From contig JAZKCG010000004.1 in NCBI GenBank assembly GCA_040388175.1, positions 45,160 through 109,159 of the forward strand: DNA of 64,000 nt. The letters are read 5' to 3'. Origin of the DNA: Bacteroidota bacterium. GTDB lineage: Bacteria > Bacteroidota > Bacteroidia > Sphingobacteriales > Sphingobacteriaceae. Shown here piece after piece: positions 1,531-60,583 of this stretch. Every line of letters begins with the position of its first letter. Position 1 is the first letter of the stretch. A program made the position numbers and the translations under genes. The notes under the pieces were generated by a model. That model saw only the letters and a list, made by a program, of their open reading frames with translations. It was not told the DNA's origin and searched no databases.

Positions 1531-1557
1531 AAGAGGGGGCCATTTGCCCCCTCTTTT
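1531..1557 (+). promoter_or_regulatory. rimP leader hairpin (attenuator/terminator-like)
   Basis: A 10-bp perfect stem, AAGAGGGGGC/GCCCCCTCTT, with a short U run lies between the promoter and rimP. Its position matches rimP-leader motifs known in other bacteria. Confidence 0.6.
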
Positions 1558-1559
1558 AG

Positions 1560-1583
1560 TTTACCTCCCGATAGCTATCGGGA
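1560..1583. repeat. REP-like palindrome TCCCGATAGCTATCGGGA, copy 1
   Basis: An 18-bp perfect palindrome sits within 24 nt identical to 60087-60110. Confidence 0.8.
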
Positions 1584-9536: not shown

Positions 9537-10865
9537 TTAGTGTTTACGCGCTTTGTGCTTTTTAACGGCGCTGTGTTTGGCTACCGGTTCTTTCTTATGT
9601 TTTTTAACGGGCTGTTTTTTCTTTTCTACAATAGGGGCCTGTGCCTGTTCATCCTCTTCCTCGCCGTCGCGGCCGTAAGCCCCCGCACGTACTACGGGCA
9701 TGCCGGTCATTTTAAACAGATCATCAAGATGTAGCAGGCTGCCGTTGGCCATATTATCCAGCAATATAATTACTACGTCTTCCTTCATATCGCGCAGAAA
9801 GTTATGGCGAAAGCCATGCCACCAGCCGGTGTGATAAACCACTTTCTCGTTAGGAGCCTCAAACAAATGCCAGCCGTAACCATACCCAAAATGACCGTTC
9901 TTTAACGGAACACGGTTGGTATAAGCCGAATCCTGCGTGGCTTGTTTAATGAGCATTCCGGCACGCAGCGCACGATCGAATATAAAAAGATCGCCCACGG
10001 TGCTATAAATACCTTTATCGCCAACGGGTCCATCCAGGTAGTTTTGTGCTACCGAGTACCGCCAGCTGTTACGATCGTGCCCCAATACCTTGGTGGGTAT
10101 TTTATCGTAAGTGGCCTTGGAGTATACATTGGTATGCTTCATGCCGGCGGGCAGAAAAATGTTCTGCATCATATAATCGGCGTACGACATATGTGCAGCC
10201 TTCTCTATAATAGAGCCCAGCACCATAAAATTGGAGTTGTTGTAATGGTAACCTTTGTCGGGCACGTTATAACGTGCGGGTTTGTACTGGGCCAGTAAGT
10301 CCATCATTTGCTGGTTGGTAACCCCCTTTTTCTGGTCGCGGTGTTCTTTGCGGAAAACATCGTCGATAGCATATACATAGTTGGGCAGGCCCGAGCGGTG
10401 CGTAAGCAGCATGCGGATGGTTACGCCATGATATGGAAAATTGGGGAAAAACTGCTGCACGGAATCTTCAAGGCGCAGCTTACCCCGTTCCATTAACTGC
10501 AGAATGGCGGTAGCAGTCATAGTTTTACTGATGGACGCCAGTTCAAACTGAGAGTTAAGCGTCAGGCTGTCCTGGTGCGGGTAGTTAGCCCAGCCGAATG
10601 CATTTTGGTAAACTATCTTTCCTTTTTTTGCCACCAGTACGTTACCGTTAAAACCGGCTGCCGTATGCAGGTGCTGCATAAAAGCATCTATCTGTTTATC
10701 CGCATTTTTAGGGTTATAAGCCAGCAAAGCCTTAGTATCTAACGGTTTACTTTTGTCGCCGCCCCCAAGTAAAGAATTTTCATTATCGCCCGATTTTGAC
10801 GAGCATGATGCCAATAAAAGTAAGGCGGTGGTAAATGTTAGCAGGCTGTATTTCACTAATCTCAT
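9537..10865 (-). CDS. Serine hydrolase (class C beta-lactamase/PBP-like) lipoprotein
   Basis: SISK (SxxK), YNN and HTG motifs; LLASC lipobox; K/H-rich C-terminal tail. Confidence 0.88.
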   Translation of the reverse strand: MRLVKYSLLTFTTALLLLASCSSKSGDNENSLLGGGDKSKPLDTKALLAYNPKNADKQIDAFMQHLHTAAGFNGNVLVAKKGKIVYQNAFGWANYPHQDSLTLNSQFELASISKTMTATAILQLMERGKLRLEDSVQQFFPNFPYHGVTIRMLLTHRSGLPNYVYAIDDVFRKEHRDQKKGVTNQQMMDLLAQYKPARYNVPDKGYHYNNSNFMVLGSIIEKAAHMSYADYMMQNIFLPAGMKHTNVYSKATYDKIPTKVLGHDRNSWRYSVAQNYLDGPVGDKGIYSTVGDLFIFDRALRAGMLIKQATQDSAYTNRVPLKNGHFGYGYGWHLFEAPNEKVVYHTGWWHGFRHNFLRDMKEDVVIILLDNMANGSLLHLDDLFKMTGMPVVRAGAYGRDGEEEDEQAQAPIVEKKKQPVKKHKKEPVAKHSAVKKHKARKH

Positions 10866-24435: not shown

Positions 24436-25206
24436 TTATTTTATCCCGGTGGGCAATACGCTTACTGATGTCCAGCCCCCATCAACAATCAGGCTTTGCC
24501 CGGTGATGTGTTTGGCTTTGTCTGATACCAGGAACAGGGCCGTATTAGCTATATCACTTACATAAGCAGGGCGGCCCATAGGGGTTATTTCTGACCAAAC
24601 CTTTTCGTAATCTTCTTCGAGGGTTGTGCGCTCGGTTAATGTAGCGCCCGGGGCTACAGTATTTACGTTTATTTTATAAGGCGATAATTCTATTACCAGG
24701 TTTTTGGCCAGCATTTCTAACGCGGCTTTAGTCATAGCATAAGCGGCAAGACTTTTCAATGCCTGGTGCCCTACTACCGACGAGGTGAAAAGTATAGCCC
24801 CACCATTAGGCTGTAACTTCATTTTATTTGATGCTGCCTGCGCCAAAAAGAACGATCCGCCCAGGTTAACCTGTAAAACTTTAAAGAACGCTTCCTGCGA
24901 GTAGGTAGCAAAATCGCCGTATAATGTGATACCTGCATTGGCAATTACAATATCCAGGTGACCATATTGGTTAATAGCCGCCTCGACTAATCGGTTAATG
25001 AAATCAAGGTCGCTCGAATCGCCGGGAAAAGCGATACAAGTTTTTCCATTATCGGCGTTAATCAGCGCGGCGGCATTGTCAGCCAATTTAGCGTCAAGAT
25101 CATTCAAAAAGACTGTCGCACCGTGGCTTACCAATTGCCTGCATATTTCAAACCCAATGCCCTGGCCCGCACCCGTAACAATAGCTACCTTATTCTTAAA
25201 ATTCAT
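24436..25206 (-). CDS. SDR family oxidoreductase
   Basis: TGAGQGIG, NAG, YAMTK (YxxxK) and DGG motifs. Confidence 0.95.
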   Translation of the reverse strand: MNFKNKVAIVTGAGQGIGFEICRQLVSHGATVFLNDLDAKLADNAAALINADNGKTCIAFPGDSSDLDFINRLVEAAINQYGHLDIVIANAGITLYGDFATYSQEAFFKVLQVNLGGSFFLAQAASNKMKLQPNGGAILFTSSVVGHQALKSLAAYAMTKAALEMLAKNLVIELSPYKINVNTVAPGATLTERTTLEEDYEKVWSEITPMGRPAYVSDIANTALFLVSDKAKHITGQSLIVDGGWTSVSVLPTGIK

Positions 25207-25360
25207 ACTGTAGGTTAATGTGGTTCCTTTAAAACAAAAAAGGCCCGGATCATAGATTCCGGACCACCAAAGTAAGTAAATAAAGTTTCAAATGGTAGTG
25301 CAGATAATTACTTCCAGTCTGCCGGGCCAAAGACGCTGTTTTTCGGCGTATTTTTCGTAT

Positions 25361-25616
25361 TTTTGTGTAAGCCCAAACGCCTGTTAAGGCGACATATTTT
25401 GCGAAAAACGCAAGCACGCATAAACGCAATTATTTCACAATACACTTATATCCAGAAATTTAAGTTAAATACTTACTGTGGTAACGTGTGATAGGCTGTG
25501 AAATAGGGTGAAAATTCTGTGATAGCGTGTGATTAGAGGTGTTATAAGTGTGGTAAACCGTGCAGTTTGATACGCAAAACTGTCCCAAGGGTAAAGCTTT
25601 TAATGCGTTTGCCCTG
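25361..25616 (-). repeat. Dispersed ~260-bp non-coding element with a helically phased CAC array, copy 1
   Basis: Its reverse complement aligns with 46077-46335, without indels over the first ~160 nt. Confidence 0.9.
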
Positions 25617-25720
25617 TAATTAGAACCAGCAACATAAAGATCTGAAGCCTTTTTATTTTGATTTATTTGTAAGTTAGCGTAGCTATTACAGCAACCTGTT
25701 ATCTAACCAAATAACTTTAT

Positions 25721-27277
25721 ATGAAGGCAAAATATTTCATGCTGCTACTATTATGGCCTTTCGCCATAATACAGGCTAATGCGCAAAACGCTACTATCAG
25801 TCAGCCGGGCGGCTCATTAAAGCTAATAAAAACAGGTACGGGTAAACCGCGTAATATCGTTTTTATTTTGGCTGATGATCATCGATATGATGCGCTTGGA
25901 TTTTTAAAGACACAGGATTTTATTGAAACCCCTAACCTGGACCGGATAGCCCGCGAAGGTGCTTATTTGCCTAACGCGTTTGTGAACAATTCGCTTTGTT
26001 CGCCATCAAGGGCTTCTATCCTGACCGGGTTGTATTCGCATAAACACACGGTTATTGATAATGAGCACGCCGTGCCTGCTAACTTGATATTCTTCCCGCA
26101 ATATTTGCAGCAGATAGGTTACCAAACCGCAATGGTAGGTAAATGGCATGCCGGCAATGATGGCGACGAGCCTAAACGCGGGTTTAATTACTGGCTATCC
26201 TTTAAGGGCCAGGGATCATACCTACCCGAAAAGAATGGGCTGAATTTTAACGGCAAACATATTCCGCAAAAAGGCTATATCACGGATGAATTAACCGATT
26301 ACGCGTTGGACTTTTTAAGTCATCGTCAAAAAGATAAGCCATTCATGCTGTACCTGGCACATAAAGGCGTACATGCCGATTTTATACCTGCCGAACGTGA
26401 TAAGGGCCGTGCTGCCAAGTATGAGTTTAAACCACCATTCACCATGGACCCCAAAAATGTAGAGGGTGCGCCTATGTGGGTACAAAACCAACGCAACTCA
26501 TGGCACGGGGTTGATTTCCCTTACCATAGCGACCTTAATATTGGCGAATACTATAAACGCTACGCCGAGACTTTGCATAGCGTTGATGAGTCGGTAGGTA
26601 AGGTGATGGATTACCTGAAAAAAGAGGACTTATTAGAATCGACACTTATTATTTATATGGGCGATAATGGCTTTCAGTTTGGCGAACATGGCCTGATAGA
26701 CAAACGCAACGCTTACGAAGCGTCTATGCGGGTACCGATGCTGGCTTATTGCCCCGAGGTGATTAAGCCGGGTACTGTAGTTAAGCAAGTGGTAGCCAAT
26801 ATTGATATAGCTCCAACCCTATTAGATGCAGCAGGGCTAAAAGCCCCTGCCTATATGGATGGTGCAAGCTTTTTGCCTTTATTAGCAGGTAAAACTGTTA
26901 CCAACTGGCGTAAAGGTTTATTGTATGAATATTACTGGGAGCGATCCTTCCCGCAAACACCAACCATGCATGCTTTGCGTAATGACCGGTTTAAATATAT
27001 CCACTACTATGGTATATGGGATACCGACGAGTTGTACGACCTGCAAGCCGACCCATTAGAAGCCAAAAACCTGATACGCGACCCGCAATATGCAGCTACC
27101 GTAAAAAGCATGGGTAAAGAATTGTTCCAGGCCTTAGCGGACACCAAAGGGATGTACCTGCCGCTGCATGACAATTTAGGCGGACAATCAAACCTGCGCA
27201 ACAAACATGGGTCGCCGGAAGCTAAGTTCCCGGATTATTTGATTAAGGATGTGAAGGGTACGAAGAAGCAGGATTAA
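25721..27277 (+). CDS. Formylglycine-dependent (Cys-type) sulfatase, exported
   Basis: ILADDH, CSPSRASILTG, GKWH and GDNG motifs; signal peptide. Confidence 0.95.
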   Translation: MKAKYFMLLLLWPFAIIQANAQNATISQPGGSLKLIKTGTGKPRNIVFILADDHRYDALGFLKTQDFIETPNLDRIAREGAYLPNAFVNNSLCSPSRASILTGLYSHKHTVIDNEHAVPANLIFFPQYLQQIGYQTAMVGKWHAGNDGDEPKRGFNYWLSFKGQGSYLPEKNGLNFNGKHIPQKGYITDELTDYALDFLSHRQKDKPFMLYLAHKGVHADFIPAERDKGRAAKYEFKPPFTMDPKNVEGAPMWVQNQRNSWHGVDFPYHSDLNIGEYYKRYAETLHSVDESVGKVMDYLKKEDLLESTLIIYMGDNGFQFGEHGLIDKRNAYEASMRVPMLAYCPEVIKPGTVVKQVVANIDIAPTLLDAAGLKAPAYMDGASFLPLLAGKTVTNWRKGLLYEYYWERSFPQTPTMHALRNDRFKYIHYYGIWDTDELYDLQADPLEAKNLIRDPQYAATVKSMGKELFQALADTKGMYLPLHDNLGGQSNLRNKHGSPEAKFPDYLIKDVKGTKKQD

Positions 27278-28594: not shown

Positions 28595-28620
28595 AAAAAA
28601 GCCCCTATTCGGGGCTTCTT
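28595..28620. terminator. Bidirectional intrinsic terminator
   Basis: AAAAAAGCCCC-TATTC-GGGGCTTCTT. Confidence 0.75.
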
Positions 28621-28628
28621 GTTATCTC

Positions 28629-45312: not shown

Positions 45313-45350
45313 AAAATCCGGGAAGGTCTAAAAGGCCCTTCCGGATTTTT
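45313..45350. terminator. Bidirectional intrinsic terminator
   Basis: AAAATCCGGGAAGG...CCTTCCGGATTTTT. Confidence 0.75.
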
Positions 45351-46024
45351 TATTTTGCCAGCACGTAAAAGTGCATGTCTTTACGATTTACAAAGCCCAT
45401 GTTTTCATAAACCTTTACGGCTCTTGTATTATCACGTTTTACGTGTAAAAAGGGGATATTGCCTTCGGCCGTTACGCGGTTGATATGGTATTGCAGCAGC
45501 TGTTTAGCGTAACCCTTCCCGGTATAATCCGGGTGTGTGCAAACCGCGCTGATCTCGGCATAAGGTAATGGGTTCATTCGTTGGCCGGCCATGGCGATTA
45601 GCTGATCGCCGTCAAAGATCCCGCGATAGTGCCCAAAGTCAATGGTACGCGATAAGAACGGACCGGGATTGGTTAGTTTGGTCAGTTCCAGCATTTGCGG
45701 GATATGTTCATCAGTAAGGGTAACAAAATGGGAAGTATTAACCGGGATGGTATCGCCATGATAGATCATTTGCAGGCAGGGGATATATTGCAGCATTTTC
45801 CATTCGCCAACCATTTCGACCTCAACCGGCGAGATAAATACTATTGGGTAATTATGCGTTATCAGGTCATATCCTTTGCTAAAGTTAGCTGCTGTATTCT
45901 CTTCAAATCCAATAAATGGCGAAACCTCTTTATCAAAATATTTAACCTGCTGATTGCCATAGGCCAGATTTTCATTACCTGTAGCTAAAGCATTATAAGC
46001 AGGGTTATCTAATATGTGTTCCAT
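45350..46024 (-). CDS. GNAT (FR47-like) acetyltransferase
   Basis: HILDNPAY, PGPF, MAGQR and EISAVCTHPDYTGKGYA motifs. The likely start is the ATG at 46024. Confidence 0.9.
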   Translation of the reverse strand: MEHILDNPAYNALATGNENLAYGNQQVKYFDKEVSPFIGFEENTAANFSKGYDLITHNYPIVFISPVEVEMVGEWKMLQYIPCLQMIYHGDTIPVNTSHFVTLTDEHIPQMLELTKLTNPGPFLSRTIDFGHYRGIFDGDQLIAMAGQRMNPLPYAEISAVCTHPDYTGKGYAKQLLQYHINRVTAEGNIPFLHVKRDNTRAVKVYENMGFVNRKDMHFYVLAK

Positions 46025-46076
46025 TACCGCAAACCTATAAAAAAGATTTTTTAATAGCTGTGAGAACAAAGTAAAC

Positions 46077-46335
46077 CAGGGAAATCGCCTTTAAAGTTTT
46101 ACCCTTGGGGCAGTTTTGCGTATCAAACTGCACAGTTTATCACACTTATATCACCTCAAATCACACGCTATCACAGCAATTTTACCCTGTTTCACAGCCT
46201 ATCACACTTTATCACAGTAAATATTTAACTTAAATTGCTGTATATAAGCGCATTGTGTAGTAATTGCGATGCGTACGGGTTGATTGCGTTTTCCGCAAAA
46301 CACCTCGCCTTAACAGCGTCTGGGCATATACAAAA
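46077..46335 (+). repeat. Dispersed phased-CAC element, copy 2 (a further 19-nt start of the element is at 46390-46408)
   Basis: Inverted match to 25361-25616. Confidence 0.9.
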
Positions 46336-46411
46336 GTACATAATATTGCTAAGAATACGAAAATAAGTTGAAGTATTTAGGTTAGCGTCCAGGGCAAACG
46401 CATTAAAATTT

Positions 46412-46535
46412 CGGCTAAAGCCTTTGTTACTTTTGTTAGTCATCCGTTCCATAAATGGAACGGCAATGAGCAAAATTAATTGCCGTTTGGCTTTAGCCAA
46501 CGGCCAGTTGATAAAAAAAGAACAGGCTTTAGCTC
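46412..46535. repeat. REP-like GGCTAAAGCC / CCGTTCCAT hairpin element
   Basis: GGCTAAAGCC, the CCGTTCCAT-AA-ATGGAACGG stem, TTGCCGTTTGGCTTTAGCCAACGG and GGCTTTAGCT. Confidence 0.7.
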
Positions 46536-46621
46536 AATATTAAACGTCAAACCCTTTTTTAATTTAAAAGCGATTTCCCTGCAAAGTAAACGGCAAACTT
46601 TTACTGTTTAATTACCGTTGT

Positions 46622-47095
46622 ATGTTGATGAAGAAAATAACTTTAAGTTACCTGGTAGTTTTATTGATGACAGCCTGTTCATCTCCGGATAGCAGATCAA
46701 CCAAAACAGACACCCTCAATAATAACGATACTTTAGCTAAGGCCAAAACGGCTGTATACTCCTTATGCTTTTTAAATAAGCAGGCGAAAGATAGCACCAG
46801 CATTGAACTGGTGATACACGGCATTACAGTGACCGGGCAAATGAATTGGCTACCTTACCAGAAAGATAGTAGAAAAGGGACATTAGATGGCATTATAAAA
46901 AACGACACCTTGCATGCCACCTGGAGTTTTATGCAGGAGGGAATGAAAGATACTTTAATGCTAAACTTTCGGTTTAAAGACAATCAACTTGCACAAAAGC
47001 CTTTAAAACTGAATGTTAAGACCGGGCGTGAGCAAACAGATGAATCAGGGAGTTATAGTATTAGTTATGAAGCCAACGACGTGTTGCACAAATAG
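46622..47095 (+). CDS. Hypothetical lipoprotein
   Basis: LLMTAC lipobox. Confidence 0.75.
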   Translation: MLMKKITLSYLVVLLMTACSSPDSRSTKTDTLNNNDTLAKAKTAVYSLCFLNKQAKDSTSIELVIHGITVTGQMNWLPYQKDSRKGTLDGIIKNDTLHATWSFMQEGMKDTLMLNFRFKDNQLAQKPLKLNVKTGREQTDESGSYSISYEANDVLHK

Positions 47096-58549: not shown

Positions 58550-59947
58550 ATGAGTTTCAGAACCGAACATGATACCATGGGCGCGGTACAGGTACCCGCC
58601 GATAAATACTGGGGAGCACAAACCGAACGCTCACGCAATAACTTTAAAATTGGACCAGAGGCTTCTATGCCTAAAGAAATAATTGCGGCCTTTGCTTACC
58701 TGAAAAAAGCTGCCGCCTTTACCAATACCGACCTTGGTGTGTTACCCGCCGATAAACGCGACCAGATAGCAGCTGTTTGTGATGAGATACTGGCAGGGCA
58801 GTTAGCTACGGAGTTTCCGTTAGTGATCTGGCAAACCGGCTCAGGTACACAATCAAACATGAATGTTAATGAGGTTATCGCTAATCGCGCACATGTCCTT
58901 GCCGGCAATAAACTGGGCGAAGGCAAGACCTTTATCCACCCTAACGATGATGTAAACAAATCACAATCATCAAACGATACTTACCCTACCGCTATGCACA
59001 TTGCCGCCTATAAAATGGTGATCGATGTAACCATACCTGGTATTGAAAAATTACGCGATACACTACAGGGAAAAGTTGAAGCTTTTAAAAGCGTCGTAAA
59101 AATTGGCCGTACCCATTTGATGGATGCTACGCCATTAACATTAGGGCAAGAGTTTTCAGGCTATGTATCGCAACTGAACCATGGCTTAAAAGCTTTACGT
59201 AATACTTTAGACCACCTGTCTGAATTAGCTTTGGGTGGTACCGCGGTTGGCACCGGCATTAACACCCCAAAAGGTTATGATGTTAAAGTTGCCGAATACA
59301 TCGCACAATTTACCGGCCTGCCTTTTATCACCGCCGAGAACAAATTTGAAGCATTGGCTGCCCACGATGCAATTGTAGAGAGCCATGGCGCTTTAAAGCA
59401 GATCGCGGTTTCCTTAATGAAGATAGCTAATGATATCAGGATGCTGGCATCAGGCCCGCGCTCCGGTATCGGCGAGATCCATATCCCGGATAATGAGCCG
59501 GGATCATCTATCATGCCAGGTAAGGTTAACCCAACACAGAACGAAGCCGTTACCATGGTGGCTGCCCAGGTTATGGGTAATGATGTTACCATATCCATCG
59601 GTGGATCAAACGGACATTATGAACTGAATGTATTTAAACCGGTAATGGCTGCTAACTTCCTGCAATCGGCACGTTTAATTGGCGACGCCTGCGTATCGTT
59701 TAATGACCATTGCGCCGTTGGTATAGAGCCAAACTATGCCGGCATTAAGAAACACTTAGAGAACTCGCTGATGCTGGTTACTGCCTTGAACCCGCATATC
59801 GGTTATGAAGCTGCTGCCAAGATCGCTAAAACAGCATTGAAAGAAAATCAATCGCTTCGCGAAGCTGCCATAGGTTTAGGTTACTTAACCAACGAGCAGT
59901 TTGATGAGTGGGTTAAGCCTGAGGATATGATAGGTTCACTAAAATAA
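58550..59947 (+). CDS. fumC: Class II fumarate hydratase
   Basis: [20 protein letters not shown] and [11 protein letters not shown] motifs. Confidence 0.98.
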
Positions 59948-59956
59948 AATTAAAAG

Positions 59957-60050
59957 CGTCATTGCGAGGAACGAAGCAATCTCTACATAGGACAATCACC
60001 GTGTAAATTGATTAGCGTGCGTAGAGATTGCTTCGTTCCTCGCAATGACG
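59957..60050. repeat. GTCATTGCGAG/CTCGCAATGAC palindromic element with a perfect 30-bp inverted repeat
   Basis: 59957-59986 is the exact reverse complement of 60021-60050, with a 34-nt spacer. Confidence 0.92.
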
Positions 60051-60067
60051 AGATTTATAAATTGTCA

Positions 60068-60583
60068 ATGCAAAAAACTTTTTCTATTTACCTCCCGATA
60101 GCTATCGGGATAGCTTTCACCTTTCTGCTTTCCTCCTGTTCCCTCAACCCAAGCCTGCAAGGCAAAGGCGAAAGCTATTTACAGGGCGAATGGACACAGG
60201 ATAGCATCCCGATGCAAAAACAGTTGCTCAGTTATTCGCTTTTTAAGTTTAAATTTAGCTGCGACTCGGTATTTATCGAGGTTAATTCGGTTAGCAAGGT
60301 AAACTCGGGTATGGATAGCTGCATGAATGCCGGTCGTTGGATGGAATATATCCGGGGCACCTATCACCAAAGTAATGATACGTTGCATATAAAAGGCAAC
60401 TTTTGTAATGCCGACTATACTTTGAAAAAACAAATTGGCTGTTTCCGTTCGGGGCCATACGAGGAGTTTTTTAAAGTGGGTAAAAAAACTGATTCGCTGG
60501 TTCAATTTTTAAGTACATCAAACGTTATTCCTGTTAACTTACATTTAATTAAAAAGATCACCTGTGATCCAAAACCGCTATAA
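60068..60583 (+). CDS. Hypothetical lipoprotein
   Basis: The ATG at 60068 gives a signal ending LLSSC. The upstream extension in the ORF track reads through the repeat. Confidence 0.75.
   Translation: MQKTFSIYLPIAIGIAFTFLLSSCSLNPSLQGKGESYLQGEWTQDSIPMQKQLLSYSLFKFKFSCDSVFIEVNSVSKVNSGMDSCMNAGRWMEYIRGTYHQSNDTLHIKGNFCNADYTLKKQIGCFRSGPYEEFFKVGKKTDSLVQFLSTSNVIPVNLHLIKKITCDPKPL
60087..60110. repeat. REP-like palindrome TCCCGATAGCTATCGGGA, copy 2, in-frame in the signal peptide (LPIAIG)
   Basis: 24/24 identical to 1560-1583. Confidence 0.8.

What the first reader, a model, noticed from the sequence alone, without database searches (positions are those of the whole stretch)
25361..25616. Dispersed ~260-bp non-coding element with nine CAC cores phased at one per helical turn (copy 1)
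Seen: GTG cores end at 25480, 25490, 25500, 25510, 25521, 25531, 25541, 25552 and 25562 (mean spacing ~10.25). The reverse complement matches 46077-46335, with about 17 differences and no indels over the first ~160 nt, so phasing is preserved. It then continues into an AT-rich block (ATTTAACTTAAATT) and a more diverged tail. No ORF is shared. Both copies sit between divergent, functionally unrelated genes. Established: 10-11-bp phased iterons mark cooperative protein arrays such as plasmid R1 parC/ParR. Inference: an undescribed chromosomal nucleoprotein site or non-autonomous mobile element whose partner protein binds or wraps one face of the helix. This is my best candidate for a novel system.
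Basis: partly seen in the sequence, partly recalled or inferred. Interest (0 to 1): 0.8.

Follow-up and report, generated by a model that had tools for sequence, protein, structure and literature searches.

The report
Small mobile element carrying phased repeats
The "phased CAC array" is real, but it sits inside a small non-coding jumping element (a MITE with ISAs1-type ends) that has spread to many intergenic sites in a Mucilaginibacter genome. That is an ordinary kind of element, and only the role of its internal repeat array is still unknown.

Summary
Nine GTG cores lie on a 10.25-bp lattice at 25476-25562, and the reverse complement matches 46077-46339.

The finding is only the right-hand part of a larger unit. 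Copy 2 is a 505-bp element (46077-46581) with these features:
- 18/19-bp terminal inverted repeats, CAGGGAAATCGCYTTTAAA.
- A perfect 10-bp target-site duplication, GTTTACTTTG.
- A close relative (95% identical neighbouring protein, same gene order) that has the same site empty, with a single GTTTACTTTG.

A copy in another Mucilaginibacter genome also has a perfect 10-bp duplication. In the apparent source metagenome, depth rises from about 9x to 100-650x exactly between the two ends, so there are many copies.

CAGGG termini and 10-bp duplications are what I found at reference ISAs1-family insertion sequences. The inverted repeat shares 13 of 15 bases with that of ISAsp2. The element is therefore a new MITE family, most likely moved by an ISAs1-family transposase that I could not locate.

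Copy 1, the reported interval, lacks the left 190 bp, the left repeat and a clear duplication. It looks like an immobile remnant.

The array motif is TGTGATA, with GTG kept in 36-37 of 37 units across four copies. It is cargo of unknown role. A protein-binding platform, a promoter or leader, and neutral tandem repeats are all still possible.

The parts
46077..46581 (-). Copy 2: complete 505-bp composite MITE. It consists of a left S module and a right R module.
   Evidence: TIRs and TSD. Precise empty site in L075. X1 depth is 97-658x inside against 8.8x outside, with a sharp edge at 46581/46582 and a fall across 46055-46085 at the other end.
46582..46591 (-). Left copy of the 10-bp target-site duplication GTTTACTTTG
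   Evidence: Identical to 46067-46076. The relative L075 has a single copy at 9947-9956.
46067..46076 (-). Right copy of the 10-bp target-site duplication GTTTACTTTG
46563..46581 (-). Left terminal inverted repeat, CAGGGAAATCGCTTTTAAA
   Evidence: 18/19 match to the reverse complement of the right end
46077..46095 (-). Right terminal inverted repeat, ...TTTAAAGGCGATTTCCCTG
   Evidence: Five X1 contigs diverge here into dissimilar flanks.
46390..46408 (-). Internal TIR copy, TTTTAATGCGTTTGCCCTG, in the same orientation as the right end. Together with the left TIR it bounds a 192-bp S module (46390-46581).
   Evidence: Identical to the right end of copy 1. Three X1 contigs carry a CAGGGAAATCGC end at this position, preceded by sequence that does not match the window, so a short S-only form probably exists.
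46131..46217 (-). Copy 2 phased array: 9 units of the (T)GTGA(T/A)A motif at 10-11-bp spacing, with one core decayed to GTA
46110..46131 (-). Hairpin GCAGTTTGATACGCAAAACTGC, identical in all four copies. This is the segment with the highest depth.
   Evidence: Note that L001 and L002 were retrieved by searching for this 21-mer.
25318..25616 (+). Copy 1 (the finding): R module only. It lacks the S module, the left TIR and a clear TSD, so it is probably an immobile remnant. The left limit is uncertain (25311-25318).
   Evidence: Alignment with copy 2 and L001. No TSD of 8 bp or more within 900 bp. X1 depth rises in bin 25306-25339 and falls after 25611. The element is absent from the same intergenic region in L063, L067 and an X5 contig.
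25476..25562 (+). Copy 1 phased array: 9 GTG cores with a mean spacing of 10.25 bp
25562..25582 (+). Copy 1 conserved hairpin, GCAGTTTGATACGCAAAACTG
25598..25616 (+). Copy 1 right end, TTTTAATGCGTTTGCCCTG. Its reverse complement is CAGGGCAAACGCATTAAAA.
   Evidence: It shares 13/15 bases with the ISAsp2 TIR CAGGGGAAACGCATC.
25457..25471 (+). AT-rich palindrome AATTTAAGTTAAATA. It lies between an inverted TGTGA-type motif (25433-25445) and the direct array. The same block is at 46222-46236 in copy 2.
25358..25365 (+). TATTTTTG, a match to the Bacteroidetes -7 promoter box TAnnTTTG, pointing into the array. Copy 2 has TACTTTTG at 46331-46338 on the minus strand. This is an inferred promoter only.
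   Evidence: Read from the sequence. The consensus is from my own knowledge. No RNA data are available.

Best explanation
**What it is.** The finding is the right-hand (R) module of a family of non-autonomous DNA transposons (MITEs) in a Mucilaginibacter genome.

**Structure of the complete form (copy 2, 505 bp).**
- It has inverted CAGGG-type ends.
- The left S module is 192 bp, carries hairpins, and is itself bounded by a third, internal copy of the end sequence.
- The R module is 313 bp. It carries, in order:
  - a promoter-like TAnnTTTG box;
  - a small palindrome;
  - an AT-rich palindrome;
  - nine or ten TGTGATA units at 10-11-bp spacing;
  - an invariant hairpin.

**How it moves.** A DDE transposase of the ISAs1 family, encoded elsewhere in the genome, most likely binds the CAGGG ends, cuts the element out or copies it, and inserts it with 10-bp staggered cuts. 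This gives the 10-bp duplications. Using the left end with either the internal or the distal right end would move the S module alone or the S+R composite.

**Copy 1.** It has lost the S module and the left end and is probably fixed in place.

**What is shown and what is inferred.** Shown here: the ends, the duplications, an empty site, and high copy number. Inferred: the family of the transposase.

**The array.** It is cargo. My best guess is a cooperative binding platform for a DNA-binding protein, either the transposase or a host regulator. It may sit downstream of an element-borne promoter that reads out towards the neighbouring gene. Nothing here tests this.
For: - **Ends and duplication of copy 2.** 18/19-bp TIRs and a perfect 10-bp TSD, GTTTACTTTG.
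- **Empty site.** L075 has a GNAT protein 95% identical and the same gene order. It carries one GTTTACTTTG and no element.
- **Independent copy.** The L002 copy in another Mucilaginibacter genome is 444 bp and has a perfect 10-bp TSD, AAGTGAGATC.
- **Different contexts.** The four copies lie next to different genes.
- **Absence at the copy-1 site in relatives.** L063, L067 and an X5 contig all lack the element there.
- **Copy number.** In run X1 depth rises from 8.8x to 97-658x inside the element, with a sharp edge at 46581/46582 and a fall near 46077. Several contigs diverge into different flanks at both ends.
- **No coding capacity.** No element ORF has a Pfam match above threshold (one 14.5-bit hit against a cut-off of 27), and the shared 42-aa ORF has no relatives.
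- **ISAs1 signature, checked on reference elements:**
  - ISAs1 has CAGGG ends, is 1212 bp, and has a 10-bp TSD.
  - ISArsp11 has CAGGG ends and a 10-bp DR (PMC6305408).
  - ISEc1 has the ends CAGGGAAAGATC and CAGGGCAAGATT.
  - The ISAsp2 TIR CAGGGGAAACGCATC matches our CAGGGCAAACGCATT at 13 of 15 positions.
- **Array conservation.** GTG is kept in 36-37 of 37 units, flanking positions are weaker, and every spacing is 10 or 11 bp.
Against: - **No transposase found.** None was found with matching ends.
- **Few readable copies.** Only four copies could be read as sequence. The rest are known only as depth and contig ends.
- **Copies without the hallmarks.** Copy 1 and L001 lack a left TIR and a TSD, so how R-only copies reached different loci is unexplained.
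- **Weak left end in L002.** Its left end is a poor inverted repeat of its right end.
- **No evidence for array function.** Variation among the X1 copies is too low to show selection on cores over spacers: 2 of 27 core positions vary against 10 of 58 non-core positions.
Confidence: 0.85

Rival explanations
1. The array is a working nucleoprotein site. A protein binds TGTGATA units cooperatively along one face of the DNA, and this function is why the module is kept. Mobility would only be the means of spreading it.
For: - GTG is nearly invariant while the spacers drift. L002 has quite different spacers but the same 10-11-bp lattice, with one extra unit.
- An inverted pair of the motif lies across an AT-rich palindrome from the direct array, which resembles an operator or origin layout.
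- From memory, the heptad TATCACA fits WATCACW, the unit bound in arrays by the omega repressor of pSM19035.
Against: - No candidate binding protein is linked to any copy, and the neighbouring genes are unrelated.
- The arrays show block duplications: 41-bp blocks in copies 1 and 2, and 31-bp blocks in L002. These keep both period and cores without selection.
- Variation among X1 copies does not separate cores from spacers.
- The omega heptads are contiguous at 7 bp, not spaced at 10-11 bp.
Confidence: 0.25
2. The R module is mainly an RNA feature. It would be a dispersed small-RNA gene, or a promoter-plus-leader that the element places in front of genes, with GUGA repeats acting in the transcript.
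For: - A TAnnTTTG box sits at the same place in copy 1, copy 2 and (as TATTTTTA) L001.
- All four copies point towards the start of the next gene, 53-216 bp away.
- The consensus fold has 6 pairs with compensatory changes, and an invariant hairpin.
Against: - No Rfam family reaches threshold. Gut-1 scores 19-22 bits against a threshold of 50, and poplar-1 scores 21.5 against 110.5.
- Single-sequence folds are barely better than shuffles, with z-scores of -2.25 and -1.23.
- Two of the four orientations are uninformative because the flanking genes are divergent.
- No RNA run holds the sequence.
- This reading does not explain the TIRs, the TSDs or the empty site, so at most it adds to the MITE reading.
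Confidence: 0.15
3. The array is a neutral internal minisatellite with no function. The phasing would simply reflect tandem duplication of a 10-11-bp unit.
For: - Higher-order repeats are visible within the arrays.
- MITEs with internal tandem repeats are known in the same phylum, for example BrickBuilt of Porphyromonas gingivalis (PMC4596501).
Against: - Unit number is stable at 9 in three copies and 10 in L002. Units within a copy differ from each other, while matching units in different copies agree. This is unlike an actively slipping minisatellite.
- In L002 the left arm of the R module is much more diverged than the GTG cores.
Confidence: 0.3
4. The element is a decayed coding repeat, or the iteron origin of an integrated plasmid.
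For: - A 42-codon frame is open on the CAC strand in all four copies, and 6 of 12 differences between copies 1 and 2 are synonymous.
- The layout of iterons plus an AT-rich block resembles an oriV.
Against: - A 10.25-bp period is not a multiple of three.
- The peptide differs completely in L002 beyond the hairpin, and L001 has a frame shift upstream.
- No relative was found among 5.8 billion proteins and no Pfam match passes threshold.
- There is no rep or par gene nearby. The element has dozens of copies with TSDs, and nothing matches in the plasmid or phage collections.
Confidence: 0.02

Closest known systems
MITEs derived from ISAs1-family insertion sequences (family examples: ISAs1, ISEc1/H-repeat, ISAsp2, ISArsp11)
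   Same: - CAGGG termini.
- 10-bp target duplications.
- A TIR sharing 13/15 bases with that of ISAsp2.
- Small, non-coding, multi-copy and intergenic.
   Different: - No cognate transposase has been identified.
- The host is a Sphingobacteriia member (Mucilaginibacter).
- There is a third, internal copy of the end sequence, so the element is modular (S alone or S+R).
- It carries a phased repeat array that I did not see in the non-coding parts of ISAsp2 or ISAs1.
BrickBuilt MITE of Porphyromonas gingivalis (PMC4596501)
   Same: A MITE in the same phylum with leader and tail subunits, small inverted ends and an internal block of tandem repeats. It is always intergenic, multi-copy and reported to contain promoter elements.
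   Different: BrickBuilt repeats are contiguous 23-nt units that vary in number. Here the units are 7-bp motifs on a 10-11-bp lattice with a stable count. I found no sequence relationship.
BOX elements of Streptococcus pneumoniae (from memory)
   Same: A modular dispersed intergenic element (boxA, a variable number of boxB units, boxC) with effects on neighbouring genes.
   Different: Different phylum, a 45-bp repeat unit, and no ISAs1-type ends.
Centromere and operator arrays: R1 parC/ParR iterons and the omega-repressor heptads of pSM19035 (from memory)
   Same: Seven to ten direct repeats of a short motif, bound cooperatively. The heptad TATCACA fits WATCACW.
   Different: Those arrays sit next to their own par or regulator genes on plasmids. 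The omega heptads are contiguous at 7 bp. Here the array rides on a transposon with dozens of chromosomal copies and no linked binding-protein gene.

Membership tests
MITE (non-autonomous DNA transposon) | Terminal inverted repeats | tested here: met
   Copy 2 has 18/19-bp TIRs, CAGGGAAATCGC(T/C)TTTAAA. The left end of L002 is degenerate. Copy 1 and L001 lack a left TIR.
MITE (non-autonomous DNA transposon) | Target-site duplication of fixed length flanking the element | tested here: met
   Perfect 10-bp duplications at copy 2 (GTTTACTTTG) and L002 (AAGTGAGATC). None was found for copy 1 or L001.
MITE (non-autonomous DNA transposon) | An empty site, with one copy of the target, in a related genome | tested here: met
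   L075 9947-9956 has a single GTTTACTTTG with conserved flanks on both sides.
MITE (non-autonomous DNA transposon) | Small, multi-copy, and without a transposase gene | tested here: met
   Copy 2 is 505 bp. Depth is 11-75 times that of the flanks in X1. ORFs are 91 aa or shorter with no Pfam match above threshold.
ISAs1 family (as the source of the ends) | Ends beginning CAGGG | tested here: met
   All four end sequences in the window begin CAGGG. The same holds for ISAs1, ISAsp2 and ISEc1 and for ISArsp11.
ISAs1 family (as the source of the ends) | Direct repeats of 8-10 bp | tested here: met
   The duplications here are 10 bp. ISAs1 on pKAM339_1 has 10 bp and ISArsp11 has 10 bp. The 8-10 bp range itself is from memory of the ISfinder table.
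ISAs1 family (as the source of the ends) | TIR sequence similar to that of a family member | tested here: met
   CAGGGCAAACGCATT against ISAsp2 CAGGGGAAACGCATC matches at 13 of 15 positions.
ISAs1 family (as the source of the ends) | A cognate DDE transposase (DDE_Tnp_1 with the associated N-terminal domain) with the same ends in the same genome | not testable with these tools
   The window's genome is not in the protein or genome collections: the best protein hits are 89% and 95% identical. About 106 kb of related loci held no copy and no such gene.
Partition-site or iteron arrays (R1 parC/ParR type) | Phased direct repeats of about one helical turn | tested here: met
   9-10 units with a mean period of 10.25-10.33 bp in four copies.
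Partition-site or iteron arrays (R1 parC/ParR type) | Adjacent cognate par or rep genes, or a plasmid context | tested here: not met
   The neighbours in the window are an SDR, a sulfatase, a GNAT and a protein with no Pfam match. The two other copies lie upstream of genes I read by eye as an alcohol dehydrogenase and an aspartate kinase. Nothing matches in the plasmid or phage collections.
Any Rfam RNA family (best: Gut-1, poplar-1) | Score at or above the family's gathering threshold | tested here: not met
   No match at gathering threshold. Gut-1 scores 19-22 bits against 50. poplar-1 scores 21.5 against 110.5 and hits only one copy.
REP elements mobilised by RAYT transposases | 20-40-bp palindromes with a GTAG or CGTC tag, and a nearby RAYT gene | tested here: not met
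   The conserved hairpin starts GCAG or GTGCAG, not GTAG or CGTC. It is embedded in a 300-500-bp unit with TIRs and a TSD. No RAYT-like gene turned up among the window ORFs: I listed 49 but ran only 27 through Pfam, including the element ORFs.

The most novel reading that the evidence does not exclude
The TGTGATA array is a real cooperative binding platform, either for the element's transposase or for a host regulator. By riding on a MITE it has been copied in front of dozens of unrelated genes. This would give the cell (or the transposon) a dispersed set of identical nucleoprotein or promoter modules, that is, transposon-driven wiring of a regulon or of chromosome-organising sites in Bacteroidota.
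Probability: 0.2. Interest if true: 0.6.

Novelty: new member of a known kind. Interest (0 to 1): 0.3.

Why it matters
It turns an apparently exotic "phased iteron array" into something testable and mostly familiar: a new MITE family with ISAs1-type ends in soil and freshwater Mucilaginibacter.

Practical consequences:
- Short-read assemblies of these genomes break at the element.
- It separates closely related strains by presence or absence at specific loci.
- It may bring a promoter and a protein-binding array to the 5' side of genes.

MITEs of the ISAs1 family are barely documented, and nothing is known about what ISAs1 transposases recognise beyond the CAGGG ends. A family with three usable ends and a modular structure could be a convenient system for studying that. 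The array remains the only unusual part.

Tried and rejected
- **Rfam.** The whole window at gathering threshold gave nothing. Permissive searches of both copies gave only sub-threshold Gut-1 and poplar-1 hits, caused by GUGAAA words.
- **Genome-collection scan** with the 21-nt hairpin found only two loci, both in one Mucilaginibacter MAG. The window's own genome is evidently not in the collection.
- **Metagenome scan** with an array pattern was a poor choice.
- **Viral-contig scans** with the hairpin and with the TIR gave none or chance coding hits.
- **Plasmid and phage blastn** found no match.
- **RNA runs.** None hold the sequence.
- **Search for more copies through the shared 42-aa ORF** found no protein sharing words with it.
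- **Failed look-ups.** The window's last gene and P0006 were not on record.
- **Search for a Bacteroidota ISAs1 transposase seed** through the plasmid collection found only Proteobacteria, Cyanobacteria, Actinobacteria and the like. The partner was not found.
- **Related Mucilaginibacter loci.** About 106 kb (L063-L070, L075) contain no copy.
- **Exact insertion point of copy 1.** Alignment to L067 failed because the intergenic regions are too diverged. A 7/10 match, TAATTACTTC against TAATTAGAAC, flanking copy 1 is suggestive only.
- **Sigma-70-type promoter and terminator scan** was not informative for this phylum.
- **Rejected readings.**
  - Coding repeat, replication origin and REP/RAYT: reasons are given under the rival explanations and the membership test.
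  - DnaA boxes and CRP half-sites: considered from memory and set aside, because the array motif TGTGATA lacks one base of the 9-mer DnaA box, and CRP dimers bind inverted, not direct, half-sites.

Full report
**1. The observation**

Reading 25100-25900 and the reverse strand of 45800-46600 shows the described sequence. GTG cores end at 25480, 25490, 25500, 25510, 25521, 25531, 25541, 25552 and 25562. The spacings are 10,10,10,11,10,10,11,10.

The second copy has the same lattice, with one core decayed to GTA. The two copies match without gaps over 192 nt with 23 differences, 17 of them in the first 160. With a few gaps the match runs to 25357/46339.

A three-unit version of the motif occurs six times in the window, all inside the two copies, against 0.01 expected by chance.

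There are two corrections:
- A 42-codon ORF on the CAC strand is shared by both copies.

**2. Organism and context**

The window has 42.6% G+C. The best protein matches are to Mucilaginibacter.

Copy 1 lies between a short-chain dehydrogenase gene (24436-25206, minus strand) and a sulfatase gene (25721-27277, plus strand). Copy 2 lies between a GNAT acetyltransferase gene (45350-46024, minus strand) and a 157-aa protein with no Pfam match (46622-47095, plus strand).

I saw no transposase, rep or par gene. I listed 49 ORFs of 90 aa or more and ran 27, including the element ORFs, through Pfam.

**3. More copies**

An exact scan of one genome per species with the 21-nt hairpin found two further copies, both in a Mucilaginibacter MAG (L001 and L002). 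They sit upstream of genes I read by eye as an alcohol dehydrogenase and an aspartate kinase.

All four copies have 9-10 units with a mean period of 10.25-10.33 bp. Over 37 units:
- G, T and G of the core are kept 37, 36 and 36 times.
- T precedes the core in 30 units and A follows it in 30.
- The spacers are close to random.

The motif is (T)GTGA(T/A)A.

**4. Copy number and boundaries from a metagenome**

Run X1, a watershed metagenome, holds 96% of the sampled words of the locus. Laying its contigs on the window gives these results:
- Flanks are at 8.5-9.3x.
- Inside the element depth is 97-658x, highest over the hairpin.
- Depth steps from 155.6x to 12x to 8.8x at exactly 46581/46582.
- Depth falls near 46077 (bin 46055-46085) and after 25611.
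- Contigs of the source strain break at the element.
- Four or five other contigs run from each end into unrelated sequence.

There are therefore dozens of copies per genome equivalent, or fewer if several related strains in the sample contribute.

**5. The real unit: inverted ends, duplication, empty site**

The tail motif of copy 2 (TTAAAGGCGATTTCCCTG) recurs in inverted orientation at 46564-46581. On the element strand copy 2 reads:

GTTTACTTTG | CAGGGAAATCGCTTTTAAA ... 505 bp ... TTTAAAGGCGATTTCCCTG | GTTTACTTTG

This is an 18/19-bp terminal inverted repeat with a perfect 10-bp direct repeat of flanking DNA.

L002 is 444 bp and is flanked by a perfect AAGTGAGATC duplication. The chance of a 10-bp match within 900 bp is about 0.001 for each.

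The GNAT protein of a relative is 95% identical (P0121). Its contig (L075) has the same gene order and reads ...AAAAGTTTGCC GTTTACTTTG TGCTGATAC... It has one copy of the decamer and no element, with conserved sequence on both sides. That is a textbook empty site.

At the copy-1 locus, three more distant relatives lack the element: L063 (327-bp spacer), L067 (174 bp) and an X5 contig (139 bp).

**6. Which transposon family**

From memory, the ISfinder table gives CAGGG ends and 8-10-bp repeats for the ISAs1 family. I checked this on reference elements:

| Element | Source | Ends | Length | Duplication |
|---|---|---|---|---|
| ISArsp11 | Arthrobacter plasmid (PMC6305408, Table 3) | IRL CAGGGCTGATGC... 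| 1,306 bp | 10-bp DR |
| ISAs1 | Aeromonas plasmid | CAGGGCGGGATCGC... / CAGGGCGGGAGCAC... | 1212 bp | 10-bp TSD CTTTGATGGC |
| ISEc1 (H-repeat, around yhhI) | E. coli K-12 | CAGGGAAAGATC / CAGGGCAAGATT | 1291 bp | none seen |
| ISAsp2 | Anabaena plasmid | CAGGGGAAACGCATCTAA at both ends | 1607 bp | none seen |

The window holds four end sequences: CAGGGAAATCGC(T/C)TTTAA twice and CAGGGCAAACGCATTAAA twice. The second form matches ISAsp2 at 13 of 15 positions.

The ends and the duplication length are thus ISAs1-type.

**7. Modular structure**

Copy 2 carries a third end sequence at 46390-46408, in the same orientation as the right end and identical to the right end of copy 1. It divides the element into two modules:
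- **S module (46390-46581, 192 bp).** It has inverted ends and contains two hairpins.
- **R module (46077-46389, 313 bp).**

Three X1 contigs carry a CAGGGAAATCGC end at this internal position, preceded by sequence that does not match the window. Short S-only elements therefore probably exist.

L002 has the same S+R layout.

Copy 1 and L001 start near the internal end sequence, which is degenerate in them (TCTGCCGGG). They have no left inverted repeat and no duplication of 8 bp or more. I read them as R-only remnants. How such remnants came to lie at different loci is not explained. A 7/10 match (TAATTACTTC against TAATTAGAAC) flanks copy 1, but I cannot show it is a duplication.

**8. What the R module carries (element strand)**

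In order:
- A TAnnTTTG box: TATTTTTG at 25358-25365, TACTTTTG in copy 2, TATTTTTA in L001. It matches the Bacteroidetes -7 promoter consensus as I know it.
- A small palindrome, TTGCG-N5-CGCAA. L002 has a different palindrome at the same place.
- An inverted TGTGA-type motif.
- The AT-rich palindrome AATTTAAGTTAAATA.
- The array.
- The invariant hairpin GCAGTTTGATACGCAAAACTGC.
- The end sequence.

All four copies point towards the start of the next gene, 53-216 bp away. Two of these cases are uninformative because the flanking genes are divergent.

**9. The array: what can and cannot be said**

*Coding is excluded for practical purposes.*
- The period is not a multiple of three.
- The peptide is not conserved in L002.
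- No relative exists among 5.8 billion proteins.
- No Pfam match passes threshold.

*A known RNA family is excluded*. The folds are weak, with z-scores of -2.25 and -1.23.

*For a DNA-binding platform:*
- The cores are invariant while the spacers drift.
- Every spacing is 10 or 11 bp.
- L002 keeps the lattice with different spacers.

*Against reading much into that:*
- The arrays contain block duplications of 41 bp (four units) in copies 1 and 2, and 31 bp (three units) in L002. These preserve period and cores automatically.
- Among the X1 copies, 2 of 27 core positions vary against 10 of 58 other positions, which is not a significant difference.
- No array of this kind is present in the non-coding ends of ISAsp2 or ISAs1.

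I therefore treat the array as cargo of unknown role. My rough weights, which are not exclusive, are:
- protein platform, 0.25;
- neutral tandem repeat, 0.3;
- RNA or leader function, 0.15.

**10. Comparison with known systems**

It works like, and passes the tests for, a MITE with ISAs1-type ends.

The nearest described analogue in the phylum is BrickBuilt of Porphyromonas gingivalis, a MITE with an internal minisatellite and promoter activity (PMC4596501). Its repeats are contiguous 23-mers and are unrelated in sequence.

The resemblance to parC/ParR or to omega-repressor arrays is one of form only. The defining linkage to partition or regulator genes is not met.

**11. Verdict**

- The "novel nucleoprotein system" reading is not supported by anything beyond the pattern itself.
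- It is a new member of a known kind.
- Interest is modest. It rests on the unexplained array and on the modular use of three ends.

Noticed in passing
window 28609-28908 and 30202-30501; 28912-28958 and 29768-29814; ORF 29049-29723 (-): There are 300-bp direct repeats (91%) and, inside them, 47-bp direct repeats (96%). They bracket an orphan 224-aa ORF with no Pfam match above threshold and a 92-aa fragment that duplicates the 3' end of the GSDH-like gene 30222-31466. In relative L067 the GSDH-like gene directly follows the sulfatase gene. This looks like a separate insertion with a long duplication.
   Followed up: partly
window 59957-60050: A large hairpin with 42-nt arms, 88% complementary, and a 10-nt loop (CGTCATTGCGAGGAACGAAGCAATC...). 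It lies just after the gene at 58550-59947, which matches the fumarase-type gene called at the start of syntenic locus L075. It may be a terminator or a REP-like palindrome.
   Followed up: no
window 1551-1583 and 60078-60110: A 33-nt repeat (88%) containing the palindrome TCCCGATAGCTATCGGGA. One copy is just upstream of the ORF at 1615 and the other is at the 5' end of ORF 60068-60583.
   Followed up: no
window 25242-25265 (- strand): A terminator-like hairpin followed by TTTTTTGTTT lies upstream, not downstream, of the SDR gene. It is conserved in relative L063. It is part of the local sequence, not of the element. It may be a leader or attenuator, or the end of an unannotated transcript.
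   Followed up: partly
L063 12134-16106: In the relative, the sulfatase gene is followed by genes with MC6, DUF2326 and putAbiC domains, which looks like a defence island. These genes are absent from the window at that position.
   Followed up: no
L063 9760-9930: The relative's SDR-sulfatase spacer holds about 165 bp that are unrelated to the MITE. It has repeated GCGTAAAAAACCGC and CCGTAAAAACCCGC words and a GCGCAATTAGCGCC palindrome. It may be another small element or a regulatory region.
   Followed up: no
L003, L006, L008, L010-L012 and about 20 more loci from metagenomes Ga0137394 and Ga0137397: The array pattern pulled out an unrelated, highly repeated sequence end: GACATGTAATAAGTAGGTTCTGTCTTATC...CTGTGATAAGGTGTGAAAAAGTGTGAAAAC. 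Each copy is followed by different sequence, like the terminus of a eukaryotic transposon in a soil metagenome.
   Followed up: no
window 25437-25519 and 46174-46242: Weak Rfam Gut-1 hits (19-22 bits against a gathering score of 50) arise because Gut-1 also has repeated GUGAAAU words. The model's hairpins are not supported here.
   Followed up: yes
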